Shown: one piece after another, positions 11,915 to 52,588 of the stretch
Numbering within the stretch: position 1 is the stretch's first letter
Layout: every line of letters starts with the position of its first letter
From: Escherichia phage phi92
Direction: 5' to 3' (one strand)
DNA: 64,000 nt
Sequence record: NC_023693.1
The notes under the pieces: generated by a model
Told to the model about the DNA's origin: nothing
The model's database searches: none
What the model saw: only the letters and a program-made list of their open reading frames with translations
Translations under genes and position numbers: made by a program

Positions 11915-11953
11915 AAATAAAGCCCCTAGAATCGCTTCTAGGGGCTTTTGTTT
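11915..11953. terminator. bidirectional rho-independent terminator at the plus/minus convergence point
   Basis: perfect 10 bp stem GCCCCTAGAA-tcgc-TTCTAGGGGC flanked by A-run upstream and TTTTGTTTG downstream. Confidence 0.6.
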
Positions 11954-12317: not shown

Positions 12318-13130
12318 TTATTTAGTCAAATGATCTTCTATCATTTTTATGAAAGCAGGATTGCTAAAAGCATCTGCGGCCTTTTCTCGATAAACAAAGA
12401 CTCCTCTATCTTCGTAAAGAAGAGTTTCTTCGTAATTAATTCCTGGGTTAACAACAATCATTTTTGTACCCATATTAAGTGCAGGGAATAATTCCCAATT
12501 AAAATTGATAACTTGGTTTGAACATCCTACTACAACAACCAAATCTTGCATGGTCAAAGTATCAAACAAGTGAGCCATATCTGCATACAAAGGTGCAGCC
12601 TCACCAAAAAATACAACATTAGGCTTCACCCAGTTGTAATCATCTATGTTTATACTGTTGTAACCAATATCTACCAGTGTTTTGTAATCCCCAGGATGCA
12701 TACGGTAAACTACTTCAGGAAGATATCCGTGCACGTGGATAACAGAATCCCTGTCTACACCTGCTCGCTCTAGTAGATCATCAACGTTTGTTGTCAAGTT
12801 TACTACTTGGTTAGGATATTCCTTAAACCACTTTGCTATTTGAATATGTGCAGCATTAGGTTGTACATCTTTAAGCTCAACACGTCTTTTGTTATAAAAT
12901 TCGTGTGTTTTGGCATACAAATCCATACCGTTTTCATCTACACCACCAACCACTGGAAGATCTGGTGATGTTCTCACACGATAACCTGCTTGGAAAGCTC
13001 CAATATCGCAGATCTCTTCTAAATCCCATTCTTCCCATAGGGCACGACCACTATCTGTGTCTGTTCGGAATGTTCGAATCCCACTATCTGCACTTAAACC
13101 AGCTCCACTAACAAAAATTACTCTTCGCAT
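12318..13130 (-). CDS. Sir2-family (sirtuin-like) NAD-dependent protein
   Basis: GAGLSADSGIRTFR NAD-binding motif, NAAH...TTNVDDL...HVHG catalytic-His block, VVFFGE, VVVGCS, VVNPG; no CxxC zinc ribbon seen; GAGGA SD. Confidence 0.75.
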   Translation of the reverse strand: MRRVIFVSGAGLSADSGIRTFRTDTDSGRALWEEWDLEEICDIGAFQAGYRVRTSPDLPVVGGVDENGMDLYAKTHEFYNKRRVELKDVQPNAAHIQIAKWFKEYPNQVVNLTTNVDDLLERAGVDRDSVIHVHGYLPEVVYRMHPGDYKTLVDIGYNSINIDDYNWVKPNVVFFGEAAPLYADMAHLFDTLTMQDLVVVVGCSNQVINFNWELFPALNMGTKMIVVNPGINYEETLLYEDRGVFVYREKAADAFSNPAFIKMIEDHLTK

Positions 13131-13687
13131 TCAATATCCTCTTCGTAATCATCATCCCAAGAAGATGCGTCGTAACGCTCTTCCTCTTCGAAATCCCAGT
13201 TAATTTCTACCCCAAAATCTAAAAACAATTTAACAATGTTTTCTGTAGAGTAGTATTTATCATAAGCATTAGCTAGTTCCCAATACTTATCACTCAATTT
13301 TTTATAAGTAGGATCATTATAGTCATAATCTACTTTATAACCATAGTCATACATCTCTTGTTCAGCTTTAAGCATAGCTTCTGGTGTAAGAAGATTAGGG
13401 AACGGACGATTTCTTTCTTTTAACTTAGAAGCGATCCAGTTTGCAACATTCGCCACTTCACCATCTCGATTATCACCTAAACAACTTGCATAATCTCCAT
13501 CTTCGTAAGTGCCTAAATCCCCACTTACTTCATGTACAATAGATGAATACGATCCACACGTTTCACAATCTGAAAAAGTGTCTACTGTTGTAATATCAAT
13601 AGATAAAACTGGTAAAGCCATAGCTTCTTTCACACAAGCCTCCTCATATAATAACATGTCATCAAAACCCATATATCCTCCAGACAA
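13118..13687 (-). CDS. hypothetical acidic protein
   Basis: 189 aa, very acidic C-terminus. Confidence 0.55.
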   Translation of the reverse strand: MSGGYMGFDDMLLYEEACVKEAMALPVLSIDITTVDTFSDCETCGSYSSIVHEVSGDLGTYEDGDYASCLGDNRDGEVANVANWIASKLKERNRPFPNLLTPEAMLKAEQEMYDYGYKVDYDYNDPTYKKLSDKYWELANAYDKYYSTENIVKLFLDFGVEINWDFEEEERYDASSWDDDYEEDIECEE

Positions 13688-13712
13688 ATAAAGCCCCTGC
13701 TTGGGGGCTTTG
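13686..13712 (-). terminator. rho-independent terminator
   Basis: AGCCCCCAAGCAGGGGCT hairpin then TTATTTG on minus strand. Confidence 0.4.
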
Positions 13713-13727
13713 GTTAAGTTTTACGGA

Positions 13728-14339
13728 TTATACCAGACTTTTAAGGTACTTGTCAAGGGCTTCTTGATCACCTTGACAAACATAGCAACGGAAGTCTTGA
13801 GCAGAAGGTTCTTTGTCCTCGTCCCAATCCCAATAGACAGTACCTTTATAGCGTGAGCCTGGGAACTCGAAGTATGCCACATGAGTAATATGGTGTGGGC
13901 CACCCCAAAACTCTGTAAAAGTAAATTGAGGATACGCTGCTTTAACTGTATTTTCAAACCAAGTTTTACGATCTAATGCTTCGTTTATAAAATAAGCATG
14001 GCGTTCCATTTCATCCCAATCTTTCCAAACGCATTTTTCATCCAGAGAGAAAACAAAATTTTCACTGTTAAACTCGTCTGTATCTGATTCCAAAATATCA
14101 TAGTCATGTGCACTAGGTATCCACCATCCAGCTTCTAATAGTGCTTTTGCAGGTACAAAACCTTTTTCAGCGTATTGGTCAAATTCTTTTACTCTACGTA
14201 CAGTGCAGTATTCATCTTCACCACCAATGTCCAATAGACAAGCGCCTCTGCGTCTTGCTGCAAGACCATGTGTATCAAAAACTACAACGCTACCTTCACC
14301 ATCTTCACGATCTACTTGATATGCAACTTTTTGAGTCAT
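13728..14339 (-). CDS. hypothetical protein
   Basis: 203 aa ORF. Confidence 0.55.
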   Translation of the reverse strand: MTQKVAYQVDREDGEGSVVVFDTHGLAARRRGACLLDIGGEDEYCTVRRVKEFDQYAEKGFVPAKALLEAGWWIPSAHDYDILESDTDEFNSENFVFSLDEKCVWKDWDEMERHAYFINEALDRKTWFENTVKAAYPQFTFTEFWGGPHHITHVAYFEFPGSRYKGTVYWDWDEDKEPSAQDFRCYVCQGDQEALDKYLKSLV

Positions 14340-15920: not shown

Positions 15921-15944
15921 CAAAAAACCCGCCGAAGCGGGTTT
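15921..15944 (-). terminator. rho-independent terminator
   Basis: ACCCGC-CGAA-GCGGGT hairpin then TTTTTTG on minus strand. Confidence 0.5.
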
Positions 15945-15947: not shown

Positions 15948-16205
15948 TTATTCTACAGGAACTTCTTCACCAAGAGAGACTTCTAAACGGAATGCTTTAC
16001 TTTCAATACACTCACTACCTTTTAGAAAATCAAATTGCACTATAGACTGACTTAATAGAATAGATAGAATCACATCGCAATCTTCACTAGGGGCTAGATG
16101 TTTGTATTCTTCCTTCAAAGTAACATCATAAAAACATAAATCCCCTACTCCTAGTTCATCCCATCCTTCCCACGCATCTACAAAGTTAAACTCTAAACCT
16201 TTCAT
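15948..16205 (-). CDS. hypothetical acidic protein
   Basis: 85 aa. Confidence 0.5.
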   Translation of the reverse strand: MKGLEFNFVDAWEGWDELGVGDLCFYDVTLKEEYKHLAPSEDCDVILSILLSQSIVQFDFLKGSECIESKAFRLEVSLGEEVPVE

Positions 16206-16726
16206 ACAACCTCCTCGTAGTTGTTATTGTGTTTTACTGTCTCAACATACAATAAAGATTCCATCTGTAATACATTACCAGAAACAATAAACCCATAAGC
16301 CATTTCAGATGTGTCTATATCATATGCCCCGTCTTCCGGTTTAGCAAAGTGTAAAACTATTTCATCTGGGTTTTCTTCATCCCATAGTTTAGAAATTTTC
16401 CGAACCAGAATGTTAGCTAAAATAGTTGACATTCGGGATAAAGCTGTATCCTCATATCTTTTAAAACCTAGCCAATAGAGGTTAAGAATTTCTACTTCTT
16501 CTTGTGTTAAGTTTTTGTCTAAAGTAATCAGATCTGTAGAGCACGGCGTTTTTGTTGAACCTACTGTTACAAAACCTGGAGTATTATGAAAAACAATCTT
16601 AACTTTATCACGTATAAAGTTTAAACCTTGTGCCTCAACTATATATTGTATTGTAGGTACAATATCGTTTGTTACATCAATAAAACTATCTTTAATGACG
16701 CTTATATTATTTCTGGACAAGACCAT
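16202..16726 (-). CDS. hypothetical protein
   Basis: 174 aa. Confidence 0.55.
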   Translation of the reverse strand: MVLSRNNISVIKDSFIDVTNDIVPTIQYIVEAQGLNFIRDKVKIVFHNTPGFVTVGSTKTPCSTDLITLDKNLTQEEVEILNLYWLGFKRYEDTALSRMSTILANILVRKISKLWDEENPDEIVLHFAKPEDGAYDIDTSEMAYGFIVSGNVLQMESLLYVETVKHNNNYEEVV

Positions 16727-17285
16727 TCTCCTCTAAAATAGGCTTAATAAATTCGAAAATTTGTTTTTTACTTTTACCTCGAATATTAAAACAAGGAACA
16801 TTAAACTTTTTAGCCAACATCCAAGCTGTTCTTGTACCACCTAAAGGATCTCCATTTTTATCTGTATTTGCACAAGCTAAAAGAAAACAAGATGGTTTTG
16901 GATTCTCAAGATCTCTTCCAAGAACTTGGTGGATATTTCTTTGATGTAATTTTTTAGCACCTTGAGATAATCTGTCCCAAGCTGGATGCAATTCTTTTGC
17001 ATATTGCAAGGTTAGAGCATAGTTTACACTATCTGGTCTGTCAAGAACAATAACCTCTCCCTCTATTTCATTACCTTTAAACGAGAGCCAAGGGATGTAT
17101 ATTTCTTTCTTTGTATTGTTCCCACTATCATATACACCGCATTCAAATGCGGAATCTGCACCTTCTGCTTTACCAGATCGCAAAATGAACCATGTAGATA
17201 GCCATTTTGCAACAGATACCATAGTATCCCATTCTTCGTCTGTAATATCTCTGCTACCAACACCTGTGTAGAATAAATCGCTCAT
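16707..17285 (-). CDS. DprA/Smf-like (SLOG-type Rossmann) nucleotide-binding protein
   Basis: start set at internal ATG 17285 (AAGGAG SD); GVGSRDIT...SGKAEGADSAFECGV resembles DprA/SLOG glycine-rich signature. Confidence 0.4.
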   Translation of the reverse strand: MSDLFYTGVGSRDITDEEWDTMVSVAKWLSTWFILRSGKAEGADSAFECGVYDSGNNTKKEIYIPWLSFKGNEIEGEVIVLDRPDSVNYALTLQYAKELHPAWDRLSQGAKKLHQRNIHQVLGRDLENPKPSCFLLACANTDKNGDPLGGTRTAWMLAKKFNVPCFNIRGKSKKQIFEFIKPILEENGLVQK

Positions 17286-17295
17286 GGTTTTCTCC

Positions 17296-17616
17296 TTAAC
17301 AAGTAATATTGGGAGTAACAATTGGATTAACAATTGGAGTGATAGGGTACGTAAACCAAGGGCTTCCAATTTCCCAAGGACTATAAGGTCTACGAGGATC
17401 AAATGGAGGAGTTACTTCAGGCTTTTTCCAAATCTCCGCTAGTTGTTTCTTCCATTTATCCCTTGCTGTCTCATTATCTTCATCCAACTGTTCATCATTA
17501 TCTTTTATTTCTGGTTTTGGAAATAAAAGCTCTTTGACTAACTCAACATCTTCCGTCTCAATAGTAGTTTCTTTCGTAAGTTCTCCTACTGTTTCTTTAA
17601 TTGTGATTTTATACAT
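17296..17616 (-). CDS. hypothetical protein
   Basis: 106 aa. Confidence 0.5.
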   Translation of the reverse strand: MYKITIKETVGELTKETTIETEDVELVKELLFPKPEIKDNDEQLDEDNETARDKWKKQLAEIWKKPEVTPPFDPRRPYSPWEIGSPWFTYPITPIVNPIVTPNITC

Positions 17617-18362
17617 TAATCCTCCTCTAAAGTAGAATAAAATTGTAACGTATTTGAATCATCAAAATATGCAAAGGTTAAATTACCATTGAAGCAAGAT
17701 CCTGTGTCCATATATACCCTATTACTGCTAATCACAGGTTTAGGAACATAAGAATGCCCGTGAAATACATAATCTACTCCTGAAACCCTAGGAAGAAGAA
17801 TCCCTTCAAGTGCGCAATCTATCATATCACGATCCCACATTAAAGATTCTGTGAATCGAGATACTTGCTCTTTATTCATATTCAAACAAAATGGCAAAAC
17901 TTCTGTCACTGGTAAATGTTCCAAAACTGAAGGATACCCACCGTGAATAAAGCCTAGTTTCATATCACGATAATTGACAACAAGTACAACAGGTAAATCT
18001 TCTAGCATCAAAGCAAGAGCAGTTGCACCCTCTTCTCCACACTCGTCTAGAACTGTATGGCCTCCGTTCTGAAACCAACATTCGTAATATCGTCTATCAC
18101 CTTCTAGCAACCCTTTAATCATCATATCTTCATGATTTCCACGAATACCATAACGATTTAGCTTTCTGGTGAATTCAACAACACAACGAAAATTCTGCTT
18201 GCCGCGATCTGTAAGATCTCCTAAAGATACAACAACATCTTGATCTCGGATACCTAAAGTATTAACACCTTTCTGGTACAAATCAAAGCAACCATGTAAA
18301 TCACCAATAATAAACAGGTCTTGATCATCTTTTACACTAATTTCTTGATATACTAGCATCAA
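17616..18362 (-). CDS. Ser/Thr protein phosphatase (calcineurin-like metallophosphoesterase)
   Basis: GDLHG, GDLTDRG, GNHE metallophosphatase motifs. Confidence 0.75.
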   Translation of the reverse strand: MMLVYQEISVKDDQDLFIIGDLHGCFDLYQKGVNTLGIRDQDVVVSLGDLTDRGKQNFRCVVEFTRKLNRYGIRGNHEDMMIKGLLEGDRRYYECWFQNGGHTVLDECGEEGATALALMLEDLPVVLVVNYRDMKLGFIHGGYPSVLEHLPVTEVLPFCLNMNKEQVSRFTESLMWDRDMIDCALEGILLPRVSGVDYVFHGHSYVPKPVISSNRVYMDTGSCFNGNLTFAYFDDSNTLQFYSTLEED

Positions 18363-18685
18363 CTCTCCTCAAAATCCATAAGTATAAAGATATTAACTTT
18401 ACCTTCTATATTATGTTCTACAACAAGATCTGCAAATTCTTTGTAGGCTTTTTCTTCTATTTGTTCAATGTGAGACGCTACATCTTTGTATATAGCGTCA
18501 CCATCTACTTTAACAAGGAGGAATAGAGATCTTACTTCAATCTCTTTATTTTTACGGGGTAGAAAATCGACGGCTTCTTGTATACGCCAGCCGAGATACC
18601 CTGGAGTCCTTTGAATATCCTCCAAATGACTTTCTAAGATTTCCCTTCCTTTGTCTATTAAAGCCTGTTCTGTCGTTATTTTCAT
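18359..18685 (-). CDS. hypothetical protein
   Basis: 108 aa. Confidence 0.5.
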   Translation of the reverse strand: MKITTEQALIDKGREILESHLEDIQRTPGYLGWRIQEAVDFLPRKNKEIEVRSLFLLVKVDGDAIYKDVASHIEQIEEKAYKEFADLVVEHNIEGKVNIFILMDFEES

Positions 18686-18695: not shown

Positions 18696-19268
18696 TTAAT
18701 GTGTTAATGAAACTGCGTAACTAAACACAGGTTCAGATATTACATCGGCTACAGTAATAAAAACGTCTTCGTCTTGAGTTGTTTCTACACGACATACAGT
18801 TACACCATTCACCACGAATTCAACGCAATGTGGAATATCTTCACAAACGAAGGTAGTGTAAGTAACACCCAAAGCATCATACAAAGATTTAACAGTGTTT
18901 GCAAGTGCCGCAGTTTCTTCTTTTTCTGAGACAATGAATGCTGTAACAACAAGATTGTTTGCATAGTTTAGACTGTCCTCTATAGCCAATGATTTACAAG
19001 GTAGTAATGCAAAATATTTACCTGGTTTAATCAGACCTGCTTCCCATTGATTCAAAATTGCTTGGGATGGTTTAGTAATATAAAACAGATTTTCACTTGG
19101 GTTATCAATATTACTTCTGGCGATACAACGTGAAGGATTATTAATATCAAACACATGATCAAAATCTACACAAACTGGTAAACTGAAAGGTGTGAATTTT
19201 TTACCTAATAATCCTACTGCTGACAATATGTTTGCTGTGCTTATCTTCCCGTTAAAAGCTAAACGCAT
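18696..19268 (-). CDS. hypothetical protein
   Basis: 190 aa. Confidence 0.55.
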   Translation of the reverse strand: MRLAFNGKISTANILSAVGLLGKKFTPFSLPVCVDFDHVFDINNPSRCIARSNIDNPSENLFYITKPSQAILNQWEAGLIKPGKYFALLPCKSLAIEDSLNYANNLVVTAFIVSEKEETAALANTVKSLYDALGVTYTTFVCEDIPHCVEFVVNGVTVCRVETTQDEDVFITVADVISEPVFSYAVSLTH

Positions 19269-28658: not shown

Positions 28659-28845
28659 ACTTGGCTACACCATTAACTATAATGTGACCGCAAGACATAA
28701 CTCCTAGCCAATGATCACCATTCTTTTTTAAACGTTTACCGTAAACATCACAGAAACCATTCTGTAATTCGGAAGCCTCATAAGAGGCTCCCTTTTCGAA
28801 AACGTCTTTGAAGTCAGAAATTAATCCAACACAAAGTAGTTTCAT
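28627..28845 (-). CDS. hypothetical protein
   Basis: 72 aa; start may be internal. Confidence 0.4.
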   Translation of the reverse strand: MKLLCVGLISDFKDVFEKGASYEASELQNGFCDVYGKRLKKNGDHWLGVMSCGHIIVNGVAKFEIIKGEKDD

Positions 28846-29930
28846 TAAAAGTCTAACTCCTCGTCATCACTTACATCTTTATTTGCTGAATTCAGTTTGT
28901 AAGCTGTAATTTGGATCTCCTGTGCTGCTGCTTGAATTTGATCTGGATTTAACCAAACATCCATCCAAGGCAGTGGACTTTTCTTCGGTGCACGGAATTT
29001 GTGTTTCATTTTCAGTCTGCGATAGATAGGCGCAGCATTGAAGTAAACCCAAAGTTTGAACAGCTCTGCGTTACCACCAACAATAATCCTTCCTTCACTA
29101 AACAGATAGTCACACCAATCTTCCTCTTGTCCAACTACCGTGTCAAGAATTTCTGTCAGAACGTCGATATTATCTTCGTATACTTTTCTCCAGACAGGAT
29201 CTTTCAGCAGTGCATCAATAATAGCATAATCCATTTTAACGTGCAATAGTTCATCCAACATAATTTTTTGAATGAGTTTAGCTGCACCTACAAACAGTTG
29301 CTGCTCTGCTAAGGCAAATGTTGCAGCAAAAGATGATATGAATTGAATGCCTTCCAGACCGATAAGTGCAATCATTCCTTTCAGAATCAGTAGACGAAGG
29401 TTATCATCCTTCTCAATCAGACCTAGAGCATATTTATGCCCTGCCTCTGCCAGATCACTCATTATCTCTTCAACTATACCCATCCTCTGGAAGATTCTTT
29501 CGTTCTCCATAATCTGATCGATAACTTCATTTGGATTAGGGATACACTGACGAATAATTTCAGAATATGTCAAAGCGTGTAAAACTTCCATTTCTGATTG
29601 CTTCATCATCATTGCACATGCTTCGTTGTTGCTTAAAAATGGTGCAAACAAAGTGATGATTGATTTAGCAAGTGAATCATTTTCCCATTGGAAAGATAGG
29701 TTTTTGATCATAACATCATAGTTGCTTTTAGAACAAGCTACGAAATCTTTTCGTGTCTGATCTAAGTTTACTTCGTTTTCATCCCAGTCTTGCTGTTTTT
29801 GTAGTTTGTACAGACGATGCATTTCTGGGTATGTTACATTAATAGAATCAAAAATACCTAACTGTTCTCCCAAAAATACAGGGTAGAAACCTTCTTTGTA
29901 AGTGTCGTTGTATAAGTTAATTGCTGCCAT
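28845..29930 (-). CDS. nrdB: ribonucleotide reductase small subunit
   Basis: di-iron/tyrosyl-radical R2 blocks (EACAMMMKQSEMEVLHALTYSE; GLEGIQFISSFAATFA). Confidence 0.85.
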   Translation of the reverse strand: MAAINLYNDTYKEGFYPVFLGEQLGIFDSINVTYPEMHRLYKLQKQQDWDENEVNLDQTRKDFVACSKSNYDVMIKNLSFQWENDSLAKSIITLFAPFLSNNEACAMMMKQSEMEVLHALTYSEIIRQCIPNPNEVIDQIMENERIFQRMGIVEEIMSDLAEAGHKYALGLIEKDDNLRLLILKGMIALIGLEGIQFISSFAATFALAEQQLFVGAAKLIQKIMLDELLHVKMDYAIIDALLKDPVWRKVYEDNIDVLTEILDTVVGQEEDWCDYLFSEGRIIVGGNAELFKLWVYFNAAPIYRRLKMKHKFRAPKKSPLPWMDVWLNPDQIQAAAQEIQITAYKLNSANKDVSDDEELDF

Positions 29931-29974: not shown

Positions 29975-30631
29975 TTAGCCTTGGAACACTGTTTTTGTTT
30001 CTGCCAAGTGATAGTATAAATCTGCCTTGTTTATAAGAGTGTTGTATACCTCTTGACAAAAATGTTCTTCCTCTTTGTAACGATTCGCTGTTTCCCTGAT
30101 CGACTTGGCTTTATCTTTTAACCAAGCGAAGTGTGCCTCTTCCTCTGTAGCGAAATAGCCTAAATGCTTGCTTTTGCTTCCAGAAGTTTTGGCATAAATC
30201 TTGCCATCTTTCCTAATATGCGCTCCGAGTAAGTATTTCCTTTTATGTCTCTTGGCATAACTTAAAAGTGTATTGATATAGGGAGGAACAAACCTACAAT
30301 ATTCAGGACAATAGACAGTATTTCCCTCAAGAACAAGATCTTTGTCTAAAACAAAACCTTCGACATTGTGTTCTTGATACCAATTATCAAAATTTGAAAA
30401 AGTAAACCAAGCATCACAGACGGTAACATCTTTATACCCTGGTCTAATATCTTCCATCTTATATGCACGATGAAACATGCCTTTCCAAGCTGCATAGGAA
30501 GGGTCTATGAATGTGTTAACCCTTTTCCCGTTGACAACGCCACCTTCCCACAATCTACGTTCAACATCCACAATCAAGGGGATTTCTCCCCTCTCTGTGA
30601 GAACAGTAACTTTACGTTTACCCTTCTTCAC
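29975..30631 (-). CDS. putative homing endonuclease with AP2-type DNA-binding domain
   Basis: HLGYFATEEEAHFAW AP2-like block; free-standing ORF between nrdA and nrdB. Confidence 0.5.
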   Translation of the reverse strand: MKKGKRKVTVLTERGEIPLIVDVERRLWEGGVVNGKRVNTFIDPSYAAWKGMFHRAYKMEDIRPGYKDVTVCDAWFTFSNFDNWYQEHNVEGFVLDKDLVLEGNTVYCPEYCRFVPPYINTLLSYAKRHKRKYLLGAHIRKDGKIYAKTSGSKSKHLGYFATEEEAHFAWLKDKAKSIRETANRYKEEEHFCQEVYNTLINKADLYYHLAETKTVFQG

Positions 30632-30639: not shown

Positions 30640-32904
30640 CTACATTTTACAGGCGCTACACCCCTCGTCTTCAGAATCTTCTTGAGCGAGTGAGGATGCC
30701 GATTTTGTTCTGCTATTTAGATAGTACAAAGATTTACCACCAAGTTTTGCAAACTGAAGAATATATTGCATTTCTGATTTAATGGATAAACGACCACCTT
30801 CCATCTTAGAATAGTCAATCCACTTATCACATGATGCACCTTGATCTAAGAATTTAGTCAACAGTCCATATGCTTCAGCCATATCTTTATCTGGTGTATC
30901 CCAAGCCGATTGGTAAATATCTTTTAGTTTATCGTAGTCTGGCACAATAAACAGAACATTACCCTTTTGGCTTTGTTTATAAACTATAGTATCACGTACA
31001 GGATACACAGAGTTAGTCGTATTACTTACAAGACTACTGGACTCATTTGGAGCAATAGCTGCTAATACGCTATTTCGGATACCACCTTGTGCAATGATAT
31101 CTTGTCGTAAACCTTCCCAATCCATTTTAAGTTTAAAATTGCCAATATCGTCTACAGCTTTAGCGTAGGTATCAATAGGCAACCATCCTTCAGGCCATTT
31201 GGTTTTATGCATCCATTCTGCATTACCTTTCTCTTTTGCCAAACGAAGAGAAGCTCTTGCTAACCAGTAATAATGCCTTTCTGCTAATTCGTGAATTAGT
31301 TTTTTGCCGTAAGGATCTGAATAAGTAACAAAATTACTTGCCAGATAATGTGCAAGGTTTGTAATACCTACACCGATAGACCTACGTGCTTTAGCAGTGA
31401 TTTCGTTATGTTTAAACGGATACTGCATTGTTTCAATAACATTATCAATAGTTAGAACGGTATAGTATGCAACATCTTCATATTCTTCTGGTGTAACACG
31501 ACCAGCTACAATAGAAGACAGGAAGCATAATGCCAATTCTTGATCTTCTGTATTCTCACCTGTGAAAAGATCAGTCATATTGTGAAATGCTTTCGTAGGT
31601 AAGAAAATTTCTTGGCACAAGTTTGACTGATAAATAACATCCTTAAACGGGGTATGTTTATTAGCATTATCCGCAAAGAACATATAAATACGTCCTGTCT
31701 CTGCTCTTTGTGTAATAATTTCTGCCAGAAGATCTCGTGCTTTTACAAACTTTTTCTTAATTCGTTTGCGACTAACTTTTTCATATACTTCTTCAAACTC
31801 TTCCTCGCTTTTATAAAGCGCATCATAGAGTTCTGGTGCTTCGTCATAACTAACTAGCATCCAATCTTTACCTTTTGCTGCACGGCGCAGGAAAGCATTG
31901 TTTACTACGATAGAGTAATCAAGTTTATCTACTCGTTTTTCACTAACAGTAGTTGGGTTTTTCAAACGTACCAGATCTTCAAAATCAGGTTCTAGTATTG
32001 TAAACGTTACTGTTGCACTTCCACCACGACTTGCTTGTTTTGATGCTCCAACACTTGTCTCCATCCATTTCAGATATGGTAAAAGACCACCGTGAACGAT
32101 ACGGTTGTTCTTAACACCTTGTCCTGTGGCACGGGTTTGAAGGTTAACACCAATACCTGCATTATTCAATGTATATTCATGCGCAAGATAGTTAGCAATT
32201 GCTAAAGATTCTGCTGTATCGTCTGCTCTAAACAGACAACAAGAAGCACTACCTTTAATCTTAGTACGCAAAGTTGTTAAATAAGGCGATGGTAAATTAA
32301 TCTTAAGATCACTTACGTAGGTATATAGACGTTTAATGTCTTCTACTCTGCGATCTTTTGGTTGGATTTCCATTACCTTCATTGCTACACCAATGAATAA
32401 AAACTGTGGTGATTCAAAAACAACATCATTGATCGCATCTTTCACAAGATACTTATCAACCATCTGGCGCAGTACGGAATAACCATAAGTTAGGTTTTTA
32501 TCGTGATTGACAATTTTACCAATCTCAATAATTTCTTCTTCTGTATAATCCATTTTTCCCCAATAGCCTTTACTTACAGACATATTGTAGAAATCCAGGA
32601 GGGAGGGGATATTGTGATATCCCCCATGAGCCTGTTTATAAATCATACCAAGAAGTAACCGACCTGCCATATCACTATATGCCTGATCTTTCTTATCAAT
32701 ACATGCTGCTATCATAGCTTTATGTAAATCACGAGTAGGCACACCGTCGTAACAACGTTTAACAGCTTCGAGTTCAATTTCAGACCAATTTAATTTACCA
32801 GCAGCAAACTCTGACCATTTACGAAGTTTTTCTGGATTAAATTCTTCTTTCTTGCCGTTTGTTTTTGTTACATAACGGATAGATTTGCTTAGATACTGAG
32901 TCAC
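30640..32904 (-). CDS. nrdA: ribonucleotide reductase large subunit (class Ia)
   Basis: 754 aa; SNLCQEIFLP active-site Cys block, N-terminal ATP-cone-like region. Confidence 0.9.
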   Translation of the reverse strand: MTQYLSKSIRYVTKTNGKKEEFNPEKLRKWSEFAAGKLNWSEIELEAVKRCYDGVPTRDLHKAMIAACIDKKDQAYSDMAGRLLLGMIYKQAHGGYHNIPSLLDFYNMSVSKGYWGKMDYTEEEIIEIGKIVNHDKNLTYGYSVLRQMVDKYLVKDAINDVVFESPQFLFIGVAMKVMEIQPKDRRVEDIKRLYTYVSDLKINLPSPYLTTLRTKIKGSASCCLFRADDTAESLAIANYLAHEYTLNNAGIGVNLQTRATGQGVKNNRIVHGGLLPYLKWMETSVGASKQASRGGSATVTFTILEPDFEDLVRLKNPTTVSEKRVDKLDYSIVVNNAFLRRAAKGKDWMLVSYDEAPELYDALYKSEEEFEEVYEKVSRKRIKKKFVKARDLLAEIITQRAETGRIYMFFADNANKHTPFKDVIYQSNLCQEIFLPTKAFHNMTDLFTGENTEDQELALCFLSSIVAGRVTPEEYEDVAYYTVLTIDNVIETMQYPFKHNEITAKARRSIGVGITNLAHYLASNFVTYSDPYGKKLIHELAERHYYWLARASLRLAKEKGNAEWMHKTKWPEGWLPIDTYAKAVDDIGNFKLKMDWEGLRQDIIAQGGIRNSVLAAIAPNESSSLVSNTTNSVYPVRDTIVYKQSQKGNVLFIVPDYDKLKDIYQSAWDTPDKDMAEAYGLLTKFLDQGASCDKWIDYSKMEGGRLSIKSEMQYILQFAKLGGKSLYYLNSRTKSASSLAQEDSEDEGCSACKM

Positions 32905-48178: not shown

Positions 48179-49072
48179 ATGAAAGTTAGTATTCTACATG
48201 GTGTTGGCTGTTATGTTACTGATGTAGACGTTAAAGTCTTTACATTCTCTGGTGGAGAACAACATGTTCAACTAGACACGAATCTATCAGGTTTCAATCA
48301 TGCTACAGACAGAATCTTACTCTCTTTAGAAGTAAGATCTGCTAAAGACTTGATGACTTTGGTTATGACTAAGAATGCATTGGACAATATGCTATATCAT
48401 AAACCATATTGTGTTGATTTGCTCATGTTGTATGTGCCATATGCACGACAAGACAGAGTGTGTGAACCTGGGGAAGCATTCGGAGTTAAAGCATTTGCTT
48501 CTATAATTAATTCATTAAATTTCTCACGTGTTATCGTTGCTGATCCACATAGTGATGTTACTCCAGCGGTGTTTGACAGACTCTGTGTAATACCTCAAGA
48601 AGAAATTGCTTACGAAACTTTAAAGTGGAAGTTACGTATGGAGAATTTTGCTCTTGTTAGTCCTGATGGTGGTGCTCTTAAGAAAATATTTAAATTATCT
48701 AAGAAAATGTCTTTAGATGTGTTCTGTGCAGAGAAGGTTAGAGATACTGCAACAGGTGCTATTGTTCGTACAGACATTTCTGTACAGGATTTCAATAAGC
48801 GTAACCTGATGATCGTAGATGATATCTGTGACGGCGGTAGAACTTTTATTGAATTGGCTAAAGTGCTACGTGCTCGTAACGCAGGTAAGATTGAGTTATA
48901 TGTTACACACGGTATCTTTTCTAAAGGTCTTAAAGAGTTAAGTGAGCACTTTGACTGCATTCATTCTCTTAATGTGTGGGAAGATAACATCCAAGAAGAT
49001 TCCGGTGTTCTTGTTAAGAATCAGTCAGATTTGCAACAACAAATTGTATCTCCATACGTGTGGAATTTTTAA
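48179..49072 (+). CDS. ribose-phosphate pyrophosphokinase (PRPP synthetase) family protein; candidate ADP-ribose pyrophosphate synthetase (Adps-like)
   Basis: VSPDGGALKK and PRPP-binding-type IVDDICDGGRT motifs; AAGGAG SD. Confidence 0.8.
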   Translation: MKVSILHGVGCYVTDVDVKVFTFSGGEQHVQLDTNLSGFNHATDRILLSLEVRSAKDLMTLVMTKNALDNMLYHKPYCVDLLMLYVPYARQDRVCEPGEAFGVKAFASIINSLNFSRVIVADPHSDVTPAVFDRLCVIPQEEIAYETLKWKLRMENFALVSPDGGALKKIFKLSKKMSLDVFCAEKVRDTATGAIVRTDISVQDFNKRNLMIVDDICDGGRTFIELAKVLRARNAGKIELYVTHGIFSKGLKELSEHFDCIHSLNVWEDNIQEDSGVLVKNQSDLQQQIVSPYVWNF

Positions 49073-49081
49073 ATAATAAGT

Positions 49082-49110
49082 GTTGACAATAGGGAGTATG
49101 CTTAGTAAGA
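49082..49110 (+). promoter_or_regulatory. sigma70-like promoter (TTGACA-N17-TAAGAT)
   Basis: between the PRPP-synthetase-like and NAMPT-like genes. Confidence 0.45.
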
Positions 49111-49143
49111 TACTCCCACACTAACAAACAAGGAGACATAACT

Positions 49144-50877
49144 ATGAATATTTTTGCACCTTTTGCTACTGATTGGTATAAACCTGGTCACAAGCAGATG
49201 TACAACCAAAATACAAAACTCATTTTCTCTAATTTAACTCCTCGTAATGATAAAAACTTTGCACACTATGCAGATCGTGAAGCACGTGGTGTGATTGTTT
49301 TAGGTATTCGTCGAGCAGTCACTGATGCTCTTGTAACTATGTGGGATAGCTTCTTTAAAATGTCTCGTAGTGCAGCAGTAAATAAATTTTATCGTATGTC
49401 TAAAAATGCATTAGGTGCTTCTGCTCCTTCTGCTGAATGTTGGGAAGAATTGCACGATTTAGGTTATCTTCCGCTAGAAGTTCGATCTCTGCCAGAAGGT
49501 GTTTTGTGTCCTATTGGTGTTCCTGTGTTTACTGTGCATAATACTTTAGAAAAATTCTTTTGGTTAACTAACTATGTGGAAACACTATTGTCAGATGAAA
49601 CTTGGAAGACAATGACTAATGCCACAGCAGCTTTTCAGTATAAGCGTATCGCTATGGCGTATGCGATGGCAACGTGTGATAACATTGATCACGTTAATTT
49701 CCAGTGTCATGACTTTAGCCTACGTGGTTTAAGCAATATCGAAGATGGTTATAAGAGTGGTATCGCTCATTTGGCATCTTTCACAGGAACAGATAACATT
49801 CTGGCTATTGAGACTGTGCATGATTATTATGGTATTGATTATGATCAGTTTGTTGCAGGTTCTATTCCGGCAACAGAACATTCAGTAGCAACGACTAACA
49901 TTGGAGCTATTGTTGAAGATCTGAAGAAACATTTCCCACATCTTAAAGATGATGTTGATGGGCTTCGTTATGTAGCAGAGAAAGAGTTTCTTCGCCGCTA
50001 TATTGAAGAAATTGTTCCAGAAGGTTTTTGTTCATATGTAGCAGATTCTTATGATTACTGGGCTGTCTTGACTCGCATTCTGGTAGAATTGAAAGAGTCC
50101 ATTATGTCACGAAATGGTCGTCTTGTTATTCGTCCAGATTCAGGAGATCCGGTTAAAGTTGTTGCAGGATACAATGTTGAATCTTTTGCTAACTATGAAG
50201 ACCTTTTAAATAATGGTATTGCTACAGCCACTGAAGTAGTTCATTTGGCTGATGTTAATAAGTATTACAATGTTCTTCAGGATTGCAGTGTTGCTGATTG
50301 TATTGATGAAACTTATGAGATTCCTTATTGTGAAGCAGTAGGTTCTATTCAAATCCTTTGGGAAGTGTTTGGTGGTACTATCAACCGAAAAGGCTACAAG
50401 GTTCTTGATCAGCACATCGGTATGATTTATGGTGATTCTATTACTGTTGAACGAGAATACGAGATCTTACGCCGACTGAAGAAGAAAGGTTTTGCAGCTT
50501 CCAATATTGTATTTGGTGTTGGTAGTTATACTTATCAGTTCAATACACGAGATACTTTTGGTTTTGCTGTTAAAGCAACAGGTAGTATCATCGGTGAACA
50601 CGAAATTTTGGTAAGTAAGGAGCCTAAAACTGATCCTGGTAAACGCTCTGCAAAAGGTTTTATTAAGGTTGTTAAGGATACAAATGGTAAACTTTCTCTT
50701 GTGGATAATCTTTCTTTTAAAGATATCCAAGATGAAGACAATGAGTTAAAAGTTATCTTCAGGGATGGTACGGTTATTACACCACAAGTAGAAGGACGTG
50801 ATGAAACATTTACTGATATCCGCAACCGTGTTGATGTAGAGGTTCTTCGTACTATGGGAACCATCCAGGTTGACTAA
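49144..50877 (+). CDS. nicotinamide phosphoribosyltransferase (NAMPT) family protein; candidate nicotinamide ADP-ribose transferase (Namat-like)
   Basis: N-terminal TDWYKPGH (DSYKxxH-like), RPDSGD, FGVGSYTYQFNTRDTFGFAVKAT blocks of NAMPT family; AAGGAGA SD. Confidence 0.8.
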   Translation: MNIFAPFATDWYKPGHKQMYNQNTKLIFSNLTPRNDKNFAHYADREARGVIVLGIRRAVTDALVTMWDSFFKMSRSAAVNKFYRMSKNALGASAPSAECWEELHDLGYLPLEVRSLPEGVLCPIGVPVFTVHNTLEKFFWLTNYVETLLSDETWKTMTNATAAFQYKRIAMAYAMATCDNIDHVNFQCHDFSLRGLSNIEDGYKSGIAHLASFTGTDNILAIETVHDYYGIDYDQFVAGSIPATEHSVATTNIGAIVEDLKKHFPHLKDDVDGLRYVAEKEFLRRYIEEIVPEGFCSYVADSYDYWAVLTRILVELKESIMSRNGRLVIRPDSGDPVKVVAGYNVESFANYEDLLNNGIATATEVVHLADVNKYYNVLQDCSVADCIDETYEIPYCEAVGSIQILWEVFGGTINRKGYKVLDQHIGMIYGDSITVEREYEILRRLKKKGFAASNIVFGVGSYTYQFNTRDTFGFAVKATGSIIGEHEILVSKEPKTDPGKRSAKGFIKVVKDTNGKLSLVDNLSFKDIQDEDNELKVIFRDGTVITPQVEGRDETFTDIRNRVDVEVLRTMGTIQVD

Positions 50878-51624: not shown

Positions 51625-51700
51625 GGTTCCATAGCTCACTGACGAGAGCGCACACCTCATAAGTGTCGAGGGCAGGGATTGTAACCCTGGGGAACCACCA
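51625..51700 (+). tRNA. tRNA-Met/Ile2-like (anticodon CAT), non-canonical T-loop
   Basis: manual fold: acceptor GGTTCC/GGAACC, D-stem GCTC/GAGC, anticodon loop CTCATAA, T-stem CAGGG/CCCTG with loop ATTGTAA, CCA encoded. Confidence 0.5.
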
Positions 51701-51731
51701 TTTAAAAGGAGGTGCTATGCATCTCCTATAT

Positions 51732-51817
51732 GCAAGTGTGGTGGAATTGGTGATACACATTGTGCTTAAAACGCAACGCTTAAATGCTTGAGGGTTCGAA
51801 TCCCTCCACTTGCACCA
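51732..51817 (+). tRNA. tRNA-Leu (anticodon TAA)
   Basis: manual fold: acceptor GCAAGTG/CACTTGC, anticodon stem TTGTG/CGCAA, loop CTTAAAA, long variable arm, T-arm GAGGG-TTCGAAT-CCCTC, CCA. Confidence 0.7.
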
Positions 51818-51833
51818 ACACCTAAAAAATATC

Positions 51834-51862
51834 TTGACATTTACTTAGTTTTTTGTTATAGT
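51834..51862 (+). promoter_or_regulatory. sigma70-like promoter (TTGACA-N17-TATAGT)
   Basis: immediately upstream of tRNA-like element at 51874. Confidence 0.45.
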
Positions 51863-51873
51863 TACTATGAAAA

Positions 51874-51955
51874 CGGGGTGTATCTCACCTGACTTCTAAT
51901 CAGGCGTTAACCGAGTAATTGGAGTATGCAGGTTCGAATCCTGTCACCCCGGCCA
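51874..51955 (+). tRNA. tRNA-like element, identity unresolved (candidate anticodon loop CTTCTAA)
   Basis: acceptor CGGGGTG/CACCCCG, T-arm GCAGG-TTCGAAT-CCTGT, CCA; perfect hairpin CCTGA-CTTCTAA-TCAGG but no D-arm found by eye. Confidence 0.4.
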
Positions 51956-51973
51956 AAAAGTTTTAAAAACTAC

Positions 51974-52002
51974 TTGACAAGCAAGATAGTTTTATGTTAG
52001 AT
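51974..52002 (+). promoter_or_regulatory. sigma70-like promoter (TTGACA-N17-TTAGAT)
   Basis: upstream of tRNA-Ser at 52019. Confidence 0.4.
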
Positions 52003-52018
52003 TTAAAGTATGATAACT

Positions 52019-52108
52019 GGAAGGTAGGGCGCAGCGGTGCGCAACCAGGTTTGAACCCTGGCCCATTGTAGCGATACGGTGATGGTTCGACTCCATTATC
52101 TTCCTCCA
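52019..52108 (+). tRNA. tRNA-Ser (anticodon TGA)
   Basis: manual fold: acceptor GGAAGGT/ATCTTCC, anticodon stem CCAGG/CCTGG loop TTTGAAC, long variable arm, T-loop TTCGACT, CCA. Confidence 0.65.
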
Positions 52109-52114
52109 AATTCA

Positions 52115-52279
52115 ATGAGTGATTTTATGAATTATAAAACTATTGGACAGGTTGTTACCGGAGTTAAGATTGTAAATAATAAAGTTGTTTATGAGTATTC
52201 TAATCTTCAACAATCTGAAGATGGTAAGAATATTCGTATGGTAAAAACAGAACAAAAAGATTCCGGTTGTTTTGAATAA
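52115..52279 (+). CDS. small hypothetical protein inside tRNA cluster
   Basis: ORF between tRNAs; start uncertain (ATG 52115 or 52127); weak SD. Confidence 0.3.
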   Translation: MSDFMNYKTIGQVVTGVKIVNNKVVYEYSNLQQSEDGKNIRMVKTEQKDSGCFE

Positions 52280-52287
52280 TTAAAAAC

Positions 52288-52373
52288 GGTAGATTGGTGA
52301 AATGGTAGCCACAACAGTTTGCTAAACTGTCGTCGGAAACGGCGTGTAGGTTCAAGTCCTACATCTACCGCCA
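52288..52373 (+). tRNA. tRNA-Ser (anticodon GCT)
   Basis: manual fold: acceptor GGTAGAT/ATCTACC, anticodon stem ACAGT/ACTGT loop TTGCTAA, long variable arm, T-arm GTAGG-TTCAAGT-CCTAC, CCA. Confidence 0.7.
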
Positions 52374-52583: not shown

Positions 52584-52588
52584 AACAT

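What the first reader, a model, noticed from the sequence alone, without database searches (positions are those of the whole stretch)
16707..18362. DprA/SLOG-like protein adjacent to a PP-family protein phosphatase
The 16707-17285 product has a GxGxR...SGxAxGAD Rossmann signature typical of DprA/SLOG nucleotide-ligand binding domains. Two genes upstream lies a lambda-phosphatase-like Ser/Thr phosphatase (GDLHG, GDLTDRG, GNHE). Both are signalling or nucleotide-processing folds frequently found in conflict systems, and their co-occurrence in the accessory block is suggestive but unproven.
Basis: inference. Interest (0 to 1): 0.4.

Follow-up and report, generated by a model that had tools for sequence, protein, structure and literature searches.

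The report
Phage SLOG protein beside lambda-type phosphatase
These are two already-annotated accessory genes of a phi92-like E. coli phage, a stand-alone DprA-like "SLOG" nucleotide-binding protein and a lambda-type phosphatase, and comparison with other phages ties the SLOG protein to NAD+/ADP-ribose counter-defence genes much more often than to the phosphatase.

Summary

The window is 99% identical to Justusliebigvirus phages, where both genes are already annotated this way.

The SLOG protein is not a canonical DprA, LOG or YspA member. I grouped 90 homologous loci into 37 lineages.
- A NinI-like phosphatase lies within 3.5 kb in 5 lineages.
- NAD+/ADP-ribose modules (the NARP1 genes Adps/Namat, Macro, DUF4326, NADAR) lie within 3.5 kb in 12 lineages.
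- One locus has SLOG translationally coupled to Adps.
- Family members occur fused to NADAR or DUF4326.

This phage carries NARP1 itself, 31 kb from the SLOG gene.

Best reading (inferred): the SLOG protein binds or processes a nucleotide or ADP-ribose derivative as a counter-defence accessory. The phosphatase pairing is mostly lineage synteny. No experiment on this family was found. Interest is modest.

The parts
16707..17285 (-). Stand-alone SLOG-fold protein, 192 aa (ortholog of phi92 gp047; PHROG 768 'DprA-like')
17296..17616 (-). 106-aa protein of unknown function (phrog_15301) between the phosphatase and SLOG genes
   Evidence: It matches phrog_15301 at 3.2e-53. It lies directly upstream of SLOG in every Stephanstirmvirinae-like locus and in L055. 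Its N-terminal ~60 aa are conserved and the C-terminus ...T-C is invariant. The AF2 model is unreliable (pLDDT 56).
17616..18359 (-). Lambda-type (NinI-like, PPP-family) metallophosphatase, 247 aa from ATG 18359
   Evidence: It matches Metallophos at 4.6e-13, PHROG 246 at 7e-76, NCBIfam PrpA/PrpB-type models at 6e-27 but below cutoff, and lambda phosphatase 1G5B at 4.2e-30 over its full length. All catalytic motifs are present.
18359..18685 (-). 108-aa unknown protein (phrog_15398); its stop codon overlaps the phosphatase start by 1 nt
16202..16726 (-). 174-aa unknown protein (phrog_8569); its start overlaps the SLOG 3' end by 20 nt
   Evidence: Only close homologs were found, plus 30-34% identical relatives inside the same phage subfamily.
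15948..16205 (-). 85-aa unknown protein, last gene of the unit
15925..15944 (-). Intrinsic-terminator-like hairpin followed by a T-run that closes the transcription unit; a TTGACA promoter-like site follows it
48179..50877 (+). Context, not adjacent: NARP1-type pair Adps (48179-49072) and Namat (49144-50877), the NAD+ reconstitution pathway first described in a phage of this genus
   Evidence: HMMs built from locus homologs hit these ORFs at 8.7e-78 and 1.1e-198. The VEcB annotation agrees. NARP1 was discovered in Bas63 genes 79-80 (bioRxiv 10.1101/2024.02.11.579819).
12318..13130 (-). Context: sirtuin-family (Sir2-like) protein 3.6 kb downstream on the same strand
   Evidence: The ORF carries a GAGxS motif and is annotated as 'sirtuin family protein' or 'Sir2' in EmilieFrey and VEcB.

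Best explanation
The 16707-17285 gene encodes a stand-alone SLOG-fold protein of a large, phage-dominated family (PHROG 768). By sequence and fold it is nearest to the Rossmann core of DprA, but it has none of DprA's accessory domains.

I propose (inferred) that it uses the superfamily's ligand pocket, formed by the G-S-R loop, the SGxAxGxD loop, the H-x-R-N helix and the GGT loop, to bind and possibly cleave an adenine-nucleotide or ADP-ribose-derived molecule made during host NAD+-based defence. It would then be a counter-defence accessory whose product or activity complements the phage's own NARP1 NAD+-reconstitution genes (48179-50877).

The lambda-type phosphatase two genes upstream is a genuine, intact PPP enzyme co-transcribed with it. 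The pairing is mainly inherited synteny of this phage subfamily, not a conserved two-component system.

Shown: the folds, motifs, operon structure, neighbourhood counts and domain fusions. Inferred: the ligand, the chemistry, the counter-defence role and the lack of coupling to the phosphatase.
For: Fold
- The AF2 model has pLDDT 96.9.
- 52 of 61 homologs weakly match PF02481 and 12 of 61 match SLOG cluster 4.

Family size
- Homologs occur in 1245 of 50,697 phage records and in 6052 clusters at 50% identity.

Gene context
- NARP1 genes lie within 3.5 kb in 7 of 37 lineages, and any of Adps, Namat, Macro, DUF4326 or NADAR does so in 12 of 37.
- Contiguous same-strand blocks include Adps-Namat-x-SLOG (L030, L051), Adps-Namat-Macro-x-SLOG (L039, L082, Pae01) and SLOG-Adps with a 4-nt overlap, followed by Namat-x-DUF4326 (L058).

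Fusions
- NADAR+SLOG occurs in P0141 and P0205. DUF4326+SLOG occurs in P0072, P0199, P0207 and P0217. P0121 and P0122 are ~1480-aa multi-SLOG proteins with a NADAR domain.

Background rates
- NARP1 is in only 4.3% of phages, and Namat/Nampt homologs are in 4.0% of records.

This phage
- It carries NARP1.

Precedents
- Other genes embedded in NARP1 loci are proven accessory enzymes that make ADPR: Macro Adpp (bioRxiv 10.64898/2026.01.28.702374) and RyDEP (10.64898/2026.05.28.727677).
- Iyer et al. 2022 predicted ADPr-derivative processing for viral SLOG domains.

Operon
- Gene junctions are 1-nt, 1-nt and 20-nt overlaps and a 10-nt gap, and a terminator lies at 15925-15944.
Against: - No experiment exists for this family.
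- In this window the SLOG gene is not next to any ADPR module: NARP1 is 31 kb away on the other strand, and no Macro, NADAR or DUF4326 was detected in the window.
- 23 of 37 lineages show no such neighbour even within 10 kb.
- Large phages cluster all auxiliary genes together, so proximity is partly confounded by genome organisation. I ran no phylogenetically corrected genome-wide test.
- The LOG catalytic Glu of the PGGxGTxxE motif is absent (the sequence here is KGGTRTAW), so N-glycosidase chemistry is not supported by motif.
- The conserved R12 and R116 correspond, in the sequence alignment, to the DprA/ShosA ssDNA-binding arginines, so a DNA ligand is equally compatible with the pocket.
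- PhoH and RNR are about as frequent as neighbours.
Confidence: 0.45

Rival explanations
1. It is what the public annotation says. It would be a minimal DprA-like ssDNA-binding protein that helps recombination, replication restart or DNA repair of the phage genome, for example under nuclease or DNA-ADP-ribosylation attack.
For: - DprA is the only family reached by sequence, with PDB profile hits at E 0.07-0.14 over the GSR...SGxAxGxD region and PF02481 hits in 52 of 61 homologs.
- DprA is also the top Foldseek hit.
- R12 and R116 align with HpDprA R52/R143 and ShosA R139/R234, which are needed for ssDNA binding.
- In some phages the gene sits by replication genes: the gp41 helicase in Acj61 and between the ligase halves in a T5-like Vibrio phage.
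- NADAR fusion partners are DNA de-ADP-ribosylases that counter DarT1 (PMC11257639), so an ssDNA-binding module fused to them would make sense.
- A phage protein of another SLOG family, annotated Smf/DprA, scored together with a DNA ligase in an anti-Avs3 knockout screen.
Against: - The window protein does not reach any Pfam or NCBIfam model.
- It is a single 192-aa domain without the SAM, DML1 or winged-helix domains of DprA.
- The neighbours in this window are not recombination genes.
- The linkage to NARP1, Macro and DUF4326 (soluble ADPR chemistry) is not explained by recombination mediation.
- H114 and Q120 are invariant polar residues that, from my memory of the DprA consensus, are not DprA features (a lead, not tested).
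Confidence: 0.2
2. It is a nucleotide-pool enzyme of LOG/PpnN type, a nucleoside-monophosphate N-glycosidase or a related activity, that remodels host nucleotide pools for phage DNA synthesis.
For: - Nucleotide-metabolism genes are frequent neighbours: RNR within 10 kb in 10 of 37 lineages, plus thymidine kinase, thymidylate synthase, dCMP deaminase and glutaredoxin. PhoH is adjacent in 4 lineages.
- The EVADES preprint predicts AMP phosphoribohydrolase activity for the phage SLOG protein ORF83.
Against: - The LOG signature PGGxGTxxE with its catalytic Glu is not present, and GGGxxGxM is replaced by SGxAxGAD.
- ORF83 belongs to a different SLOG family (YspA, PF10686), shown through its CAjan counterpart gp82. 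The hhalign probability to this family is 9%.
- Nucleotide-metabolism genes are the generic neighbours of any early or middle gene in large phages.
Confidence: 0.15
3. The lambda-type phosphatase and the SLOG protein, perhaps with the small gene between them, would work together on one substrate. For example, the phosphatase would remove a phosphate from a phosphorylated ADP-ribose derivative that the SLOG protein binds or cleaves. It would be a non-homologous replacement for the Macro or DUF4326 phosphatases seen next to SLOG elsewhere.
For: - The genes are co-transcribed and translationally coupled.
- The arrangement phosphatase-small ORF-SLOG is kept while the phosphatase diverges to 41% identity, and it recurs in L084 (phosphatase 28% and SLOG 37% identical, 172 bp apart) and in L055 (phosphatase-DUF4326-x-g106-SLOG).
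- A phosphatase or predicted phosphatase of some fold (NinI-like, small Metallophos_2, Macro Adpp, DUF4326) lies within 3.5 kb in 14 of 37 lineages (union of the lineage lists).
- The lineages with a NinI-like neighbour are scattered in a poorly resolved SLOG tree.
Against: - A NinI-like phosphatase is within 300 bp in only 2 of 37 lineages and within 3.5 kb in 5 of 37.
- No phosphatase-SLOG fusion turned up among the 20 multidomain family members scanned.
- The enzyme is a close full-length homolog of the lambda protein phosphatase, with no sign of a changed active site.
- Neither protein matches PADLOC models.
- The neighbour-joining tree is star-like, so independent origins of the pairing are not established.
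Confidence: 0.12

Closest known systems
DprA/Smf (PF02481), including the ShosA antitoxin
   Different: The window protein has no Pfam hit, and its homologs score below the gathering cutoff. It has no SAM, DML1 or winged-helix domains. There is no competence or recombination gene context here. Family-specific motifs (IHPAW, LHxRNxxQ, KGGTRTAW) set it apart. No RecA or UvsX link has been tested.
Viral SLOG domains surveyed by Iyer, Burroughs, Anantharaman and Aravind 2022 (PMC9503650)
   Same: This is the same class of stand-alone phage SLOG proteins, enriched in larger phages and fused or linked to Macro, NADAR and DUF4326. That paper predicts that they sense or degrade ADPr-derived immune signals. 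My neighbourhood and fusion results reproduce that pattern for this specific family.
   Different: The paper places most viral SLOGs in a YpsA-like clade, whereas this family is reached by DprA models and not by YspA/YpsA models. The paper is computational only. The recurrent placement inside or beside NARP1 operons is shown here, not there.
Phage DruSM1 ORF83 (anti-AVAST type III candidate; YspA SLOG family PF10686)
   Same: It is a small stand-alone phage SLOG protein annotated 'Smf/DprA', and relatives are fused to DUF4326. It is the only phage SLOG protein I found with a phenotype: its knockout lowers plating on Avs3 cells (bioRxiv 10.1101/2024.04.14.589459).
   Different: It belongs to a different family. 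I never obtained the ORF83 sequence. I took CAjan gp82 (130 aa) as its counterpart because it carries exactly the residues reported for ORF83 (R89, N90, T112, D114). CAjan gp82 matches PF10686 at 2e-18 and matches this family only marginally (hhalign probability 9%). It has a LOG-like PGGAGTMD motif that this protein lacks.
NARP1 accessory enzymes Adpp (Macro) and RyDEP (RyR-domain)
   Same: These are extra genes embedded in Adps-Namat operons. They convert defence-made NAD+ products (ADPR-1''P, 2'/3'cADPR) into ADPR for NARP1. The SLOG gene occupies equivalent positions in several lineages.
   Different: They have unrelated folds. Their activities are demonstrated, whereas none is demonstrated for SLOG. 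In this window the SLOG gene is 31 kb from NARP1.
Bacteriophage lambda Ser/Thr phosphatase (NinI, PDB 1G5B) and E. coli PrpA/PrpB
   Same: The neighbour gene is a full-length homolog (E 4e-30) with all PPP metal-binding and catalytic motifs.
   Different: It is 247 aa against 221 aa, with an insertion around residues 145-170. It scores below the NCBIfam equivalog cutoffs. Its substrate in this phage is unknown.

Membership tests
SLOG superfamily (Smf/DprA-LOG Rossmannoid fold) | Three-layer alpha/beta Rossmann-like fold with structural similarity to several SLOG families | tested here: met
SLOG superfamily (Smf/DprA-LOG Rossmannoid fold) | Glycine-rich ligand loops after strand 1 and strand 2 | tested here: met
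   YTGVGSR and RSGxAxGAD are present, with G10, R12, S37, G38, A40, G42 and D44 invariant in 61 homologs.
DprA/Smf (PF02481) | Match to the family profile above its curated threshold | tested here: not met
   The window protein has no Pfam hit at E<=0.1. Homologs reach at best 3.6e-6, and the bit scores seen stay below the 29.6 cutoff. PDB DprA chains match only at E 0.07-0.14 over 43 residues.
DprA/Smf (PF02481) | Accessory domains (N-terminal SAM and/or C-terminal DML1 or winged helix) flanking the Rossmann core | tested here: not met
   The protein is 192 aa and the model is one domain spanning residues 4-186.
DprA/Smf (PF02481) | ssDNA binding, dimerisation and loading of RecA | not testable with these tools
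   Only the alignment of R12 and R116 with the DprA/ShosA DNA-binding arginines could be noted.
LOG / PpnN phosphoribohydrolases | PGGxGTxxE motif with catalytic Glu, and GGGxxGxM motif | tested here: not met
The corresponding segments are KGGTRTAW (no acidic residue at T+2 or T+3) and SGKAEGAD.
YspA / cpYpsA-related SLOG (PF10686), the family of anti-Avs3 candidate ORF83 | Match to PF10686 or profile similarity to a member | tested here: not met
   The window protein has no PF10686 hit. The hhalign probability of the family profile against CAjan gp82 is 9%. Viral YspA structures give TMq of only ~0.45, against 0.75-0.85 for true family members.
ThsA-type SLOG sensors of cyclic ADP-ribose | Ligand pocket that binds 3'cADPR or 2'cADPR | not testable with these tools
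Lambda-type PPP phosphatase (NinI/PrpA/PrpB) | GDxHG, GDxxDRG and GNHE motifs plus downstream His motifs, and full-length similarity to lambda phosphatase | tested here: met
   The motifs are visible in the translation. It matches 1G5B at E 4.2e-30 over residues 3-230, Metallophos at 4.6e-13 and PHROG 246 at 7e-76.
Conserved two-gene SLOG + phosphatase system | Adjacency maintained across many unrelated lineages, or gene fusion | tested here: inconclusive
   A NinI-like phosphatase lies within 300 bp in 2 of 37 lineages, within 1.5 kb in 4 of 37 and within 3.5 kb in 5 of 37. No fusion was seen among 20 multidomain members. No background model was computed.
NARP1-associated accessory gene | Location inside or directly beside an Adps-Namat operon on the same strand | tested here: not met
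   This is not met in this window, where NARP1 lies at 48179-50877(+), 31 kb away. It is met for family members in 7 of 37 lineages, including 4-nt overlap with Adps in L058.

The most novel reading that the evidence does not exclude
The PHROG-768 SLOG family, present in about 2.5% of sequenced phages, is a third class of NARP1-linked counter-defence enzyme alongside Macro Adpp and RyDEP. It would convert or capture a defence-made NAD+ derivative so that the phage can neutralise the signal and recycle it to NAD+. Candidates are an N-glycosidically cyclised or base-linked ADP-ribose such as cADPR or N7-cADPR, a His-ADPR-type signal, or ADP-ribose on ssDNA. In phi92-like phages the co-transcribed lambda-type phosphatase would supply the dephosphorylation step that Macro or DUF4326 supplies elsewhere.
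Probability: 0.2. Interest if true: 0.7.

Novelty: already known. Interest (0 to 1): 0.3.

Why it matters
The genes themselves are ordinary, already-annotated accessory genes of a well-sampled phage genus. The public label "DprA-like DNA recombination-mediator protein" is probably misleading for a family found in more than 1200 phage genomes. This family recurs inside NAD+-reconstitution (NARP1) loci and is fused to NADAR and DUF4326 domains. Two other NARP1-embedded genes were shown in 2026 to be new anti-defence enzymes, so this family is a concrete and cheap candidate for the next one. BASEL-collection phages of this genus are available for knockouts.

Tried and rejected
- Direct profile searches of the SLOG protein returned nothing: Pfam, NCBIfam, PADLOC and a single-sequence PDB search.
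- I suspected that the experimentally flagged anti-Avs3 protein ORF83 of phage DruSM1 was an ortholog. I first attributed it from memory to Gao et al. 2022, which is not held. It actually comes from Ojima et al. 2024.
  - Phage 9g (first 50 kb of its 56.7-kb genome) has no homolog.
  - CAjan gp82 has exactly the reported residues R89, N90, T112 and D114. It is a YspA-family SLOG (PF10686) and only marginally similar to this family. The phenotype therefore cannot be transferred.
- The idea that the 106-aa gene between the two is a ubiquitin-like beta-grasp protein could not be tested. The AF2 model was poor (pLDDT 56, pTM 0.21), so I ran no fold search on it.
- A homolog search for the downstream 174-aa gene found only near-identical proteins.
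- Pfam scans of recurrent unknown neighbours gave nothing: the 152-aa gene between Namat and SLOG in L030/L051, and the ~165-190-aa gene just downstream of SLOG in four lineages.
- A neighbour-joining tree of SLOG representatives was too star-like to decide whether the phosphatase linkage arose more than once.
- One apparent recurrent neighbour turned out to be the common N6-adenine methyltransferase. Another was an antisense shadow ORF inside the SLOG gene.
Full report
**What the window is.** The 3.9-kb stretch around the finding is 98-99.4% identical to more than 50 sequenced phi92-like E. coli myoviruses (Justusliebigvirus, Stephanstirmvirinae), for example Nernie, EmilieFrey (Bas61) and VEcB. 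In those records the genes are already annotated. Labels include "DprA-like DNA recombination-mediator protein" or "putative DprA-like recombination protein", and "NinI-like serine-threonine phosphatase". All genes of the region lie on the minus strand.

**Check of the observation.**
- The 16707-17285(-) gene starts at ATG 17285, seven bases after TAAGGAG, and encodes 192 aa. The product contains YTGVGSR and RSGKAEGAD.
- The gene two positions upstream runs 17616-18359(-), from ATG 18359; the mechanical ORF begins one codon earlier at TTG 18362. Its product carries GDLHG, GDLTDRG, GNHE and the downstream HGG and GHS motifs.
- Between them lies a 106-aa ORF at 17296-17616.
- Junctions, read coordinates: g108/phosphatase and phosphatase/g106 each overlap by 1 nt. 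g106 and SLOG are separated by a 10-nt gap containing the Shine-Dalgarno sequence. SLOG and g174 overlap by 20 nt, and g174 and g85 by 4 nt.
- A hairpin followed by a T-run at 15925-15944 on the minus strand closes the unit.

The anatomy is therefore one co-transcribed, translationally coupled block.

**Identity of the two proteins.**

*Phosphatase.* It matches Pfam Metallophos (4.6e-13), PHROG 246 "NinI-like" (7e-76) and PrpA/PrpB-type NCBIfam models (6e-27, below the equivalog cutoff). It matches the lambda phosphatase structure 1G5B at E 4.2e-30 over its whole length.

*SLOG protein.* The protein itself has no Pfam, NCBIfam, PADLOC or single-sequence PDB hit. It matches PHROG 768 at 8.6e-60.
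- A 61-sequence alignment (A1, down to 39% identity) has 16 invariant positions: G10 R12 S37 G38 A40 G42 D44 H114 R116 N117 Q120 G123 S132 G149 G150 T151.
- Of the 61 members, 52 weakly match the DprA model PF02481 (best 3.6e-6) and 12 match SLOG cluster 4.
- The family profile finds DprA chains first in the PDB, but only at E ~0.1 over the N-terminal 43 residues.
- The AF2 model is excellent (pLDDT 96.9, pTM 0.92, one alpha/beta domain).
- Foldseek ranks H. pylori DprA first (E 3e-6, TMq 0.54-0.59).
- Against viral models, true family members (including "Phi92_gp047") give TMq 0.75-0.85. YspA/DUF2493 proteins give about 0.45.

The fold assignment stands, and DprA is the nearest characterised family. 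The protein fails the membership tests for DprA (profile threshold, accessory domains), for LOG (no PGGxGTxxE glutamate; KGGTRTAW instead) and for YspA.

**How widespread the family is.** tblastn finds homologs in 1245 of 50,697 phage records, across Pseudomonas, Klebsiella, Escherichia, Aeromonas, Vibrio and Acinetobacter phages and many phage families. An exhaustive profile search finds 6052 clusters at 50% identity, 2113 of them at E<=1e-30, mostly 170-200-aa stand-alone proteins.

**Is the phosphatase a partner?** I collected 80 IMG/VR loci with 10-kb flanks, nine annotated phage loci and the window. I called ORFs, clustered them, and grouped the 90 loci into 37 lineages by SLOG identity of at least 55%. 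I then built iterated HMMs for the recurrent neighbour families, naming them by Pfam scans of representatives.
- The arrangement phosphatase-g106-SLOG is present in all 15 loci of the window's lineage (SLOG at least 62% identical), even where the phosphatase has diverged to 41%.
- Outside that lineage it recurs in L055 and L084. L055 has phosphatase (49% identical)-DUF4326-x-g106-like-SLOG. L084 has RNR-phosphatase (28% identical)-67-aa ORF-SLOG, with 172 bp between the phosphatase and SLOG.
- Looser linkage is seen in a few further lineages.

Counts of lineages with each neighbour near the SLOG gene:

| Neighbour | ≤300 bp | ≤1.5 kb | ≤3.5 kb | ≤10 kb |
|---|---|---|---|---|
| NinI-like phosphatase | 2 | 4 | 5 | 6 |
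| Any ADPR/NAD module | 1 | 9 | 12 | 14 |
| PhoH | 4 | 6 | 6 | 12 |
| RNR | 0 | 3 | 6 | 10 |

All counts are out of 37 lineages. No phosphatase-SLOG fusion was seen among the 20 multidomain family members scanned. The neighbour-joining tree scatters the phosphatase-linked lineages but is star-like and unreliable. I conclude that the pairing is mostly synteny of one phage subfamily with a few suggestive recurrences. A functional link is possible but not shown.

**What the SLOG gene does keep company with.** The most specific recurrent neighbours are NAD+/ADP-ribose genes.
- The NARP1 pair (Adps, a Prs-like kinase, and Namat, a Nampt-like transferase) is within 3.5 kb in 7 of 37 lineages.
- Macro is within 3.5 kb in 4 lineages, DUF4326 in 3 and NADAR in 2. 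Any of these is within 3.5 kb in 12 of 37.
- The blocks are contiguous and on the same strand. They include Adps-Namat-x-SLOG (L030, L051) and Adps-x-Namat-x-Macro-x-SLOG (Pakpunavirus Pae01/L039, L082, L049). L058 has TK-SLOG-Adps-Namat-x-DUF4326, with SLOG overlapping Adps by 4 nt.
- Fusions of this family, scanned among its strongest database matches, include NADAR+SLOG (P0141, P0205) and DUF4326+SLOG in both orders (P0072, P0199, P0207, P0217). P0121 and P0122 are ~1480-aa proteins that string this SLOG type with YspA-type and cluster-4 SLOG domains and a NADAR domain.
- For scale, NARP1 occurs in 4.3% of phages, and Namat/Nampt homologs occur in 2040 of 50,697 records.
- Of the seven representative loci with Namat within 10 kb, six have it within 3.5 kb.

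These numbers are not corrected for genome size or phylogeny.

**Literature context.**
- Iyer et al. 2022 (PMC9503650) surveyed viral SLOG domains. They reported fusions to Macro, NADAR and DUF4326 and predicted that viral SLOGs sense or degrade ADPr-derived immune signals.
- NARP1 was discovered in BASEL phage Bas63, which belongs to the same genus as this window.
- Two genes embedded in NARP1 operons have since been shown to be accessory enzymes that yield ADPR. One is the Macro phosphatase Adpp, which counters the aRES system. The other is the RyR-domain glycosidase RyDEP, which counters Thoeris cADPR signals. Neither paper mentions SLOG or DprA.
- Phage NADARs remove ADP-ribose from DNA to counter DarTG1 (PMC11257639).
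- The one phage "Smf/DprA" protein with a phenotype is ORF83 of DruSM1, whose knockout plates worse on Avs3 cells. Judged through CAjan gp82, which carries its reported residues, it is a YspA-family SLOG (PF10686) and not this family.
- I found no experimental paper on PHROG 768 proteins.

**This window specifically.** The phage carries NARP1 at 48179-50877(+), at the head of the opposite transcription arm and 31 kb from the SLOG gene. A sirtuin-family gene lies 3.6 kb downstream of SLOG on the same strand. No Macro, NADAR or DUF4326 gene was detected in the window with my HMMs. The ADPR link is therefore inferred from relatives and is not visible in the local gene order.

**Mechanism I commit to.**
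- Best reading, about 45%: the protein uses the SLOG pocket (GSR loop, SGxAxGAD loop, HxRN helix, GGT loop) to bind, and perhaps hydrolyse, an adenine-nucleotide or ADP-ribose derivative produced by host NAD+-consuming immunity. It would act alongside NARP1.
- Rival, about 20%: a minimal DprA-like ssDNA binder used in repair, recombination or de-ADP-ribosylation of DNA. The aligned DNA-binding arginines and the NADAR fusions fit this.
- Rival, about 15%: a LOG-like nucleotide-pool enzyme. The fold and the nucleotide-metabolism neighbours fit this, but the motifs do not.
- Rival, about 12%: genuine cooperation with the lambda-type phosphatase.

The folds, motifs, operon structure, neighbour counts and fusions are shown. 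The ligand, the chemistry and the biological role are inferred.

**Verdict.** The genes are already annotated in dozens of genomes, and the ADPr connection of viral SLOG domains is published. The finding is therefore not new, and the suspected SLOG-phosphatase system is not established. What is worth carrying forward is that the "recombination mediator" label is probably wrong for this family, and that its repeated placement in NARP1 loci makes it a testable candidate anti-defence enzyme.

Noticed in passing
window 48179-50877 (+): A NARP1-type operon, Adps (48179-49072) plus Namat (49144-50877), sits at the start of the plus-strand arm. It is the NAD+ reconstitution pathway first described in a phage of this same genus (Bas63 genes 79-80).
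   Followed up: partly
window 17296-17616 (-); alignment A2: The 106-aa gene between the phosphatase and SLOG genes has a conserved ~60-aa N-terminal part, a Pro-rich linker of very variable length, and an invariant C-terminal ...P-x-x-(I/V)-T-C. It always ends no more than 10 nt before the SLOG start. The N-terminal pattern reminded me of a beta-grasp start, but the AF2 model was too poor (pLDDT 56) to test this.
   Followed up: partly
window 51625-54544 (+): An array of 15 tRNA genes lies just downstream of NARP1. One ARAGORN call at 52508-52583 has an abnormal two-base anticodon loop reading ('tRNA-???', anticodon tt).
   Followed up: no
window 12318-13130 (-): A sirtuin-family (Sir2-like) gene lies 3.6 kb downstream of SLOG on the same strand. 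It is another NAD+-using enzyme in the same accessory arm.
   Followed up: no
window 13118-13687 (-) and 18696-19268 (-): Two ~190-aa genes are both annotated in related phages as aminoacyl/histidyl-tRNA-synthetase-like (PHROG 4806 for the second). They flank the block and may be paralogs. Both are far shorter than a real HisRS.
   Followed up: no
window 13727-13756 (-), 13689-13712, 11919-11948, 15925-15944: A perfect sigma-70 consensus (TTGACA-18-TATAAT with an upstream TG) lies on the minus strand next to a bidirectional terminator-like hairpin. Strong hairpin terminators are found 16 times against 6.5 expected in 11.5-24 kb, which suggests short, well-delimited transcription units.
   Followed up: no
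window 29975-30631 (-): A ~218-aa ORF sits between the ribonucleotide reductase small (28845-29930) and large (30640-32904) subunit genes. The corresponding gene in VEcB is annotated as an HNH endonuclease. Its relatives recur in 9 SLOG lineages, so it behaves like a mobile homing endonuclease.
   Followed up: partly
window ~12000 and ~48000: GC skew flips sign at about 12 kb and 48 kb. These flips match the switches of coding strand (plus, minus, plus arms).
   Followed up: no
L030:9537-9995 and L051:9447-9920: An unannotated ~155-aa gene with no Pfam hit sits exactly between Namat and SLOG in two lineages. It forms a tight Adps-Namat-x-SLOG block and is a further candidate NARP1 accessory gene.
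   Followed up: partly
P0121, P0122 (database proteins, ~1480 aa): Giant proteins concatenate three different SLOG types (this family, YspA-type and cluster 4) with a C-terminal NADAR domain.
   Followed up: partly
L003:4460-4963, L049:11316-11843, L052:10540-11037, L082:10856-11332: An unknown ~160-190-aa protein family with no Pfam hit lies immediately downstream of the SLOG gene in four lineages, including the Pakpunavirus NARP1-Macro-SLOG loci.
   Followed up: partly
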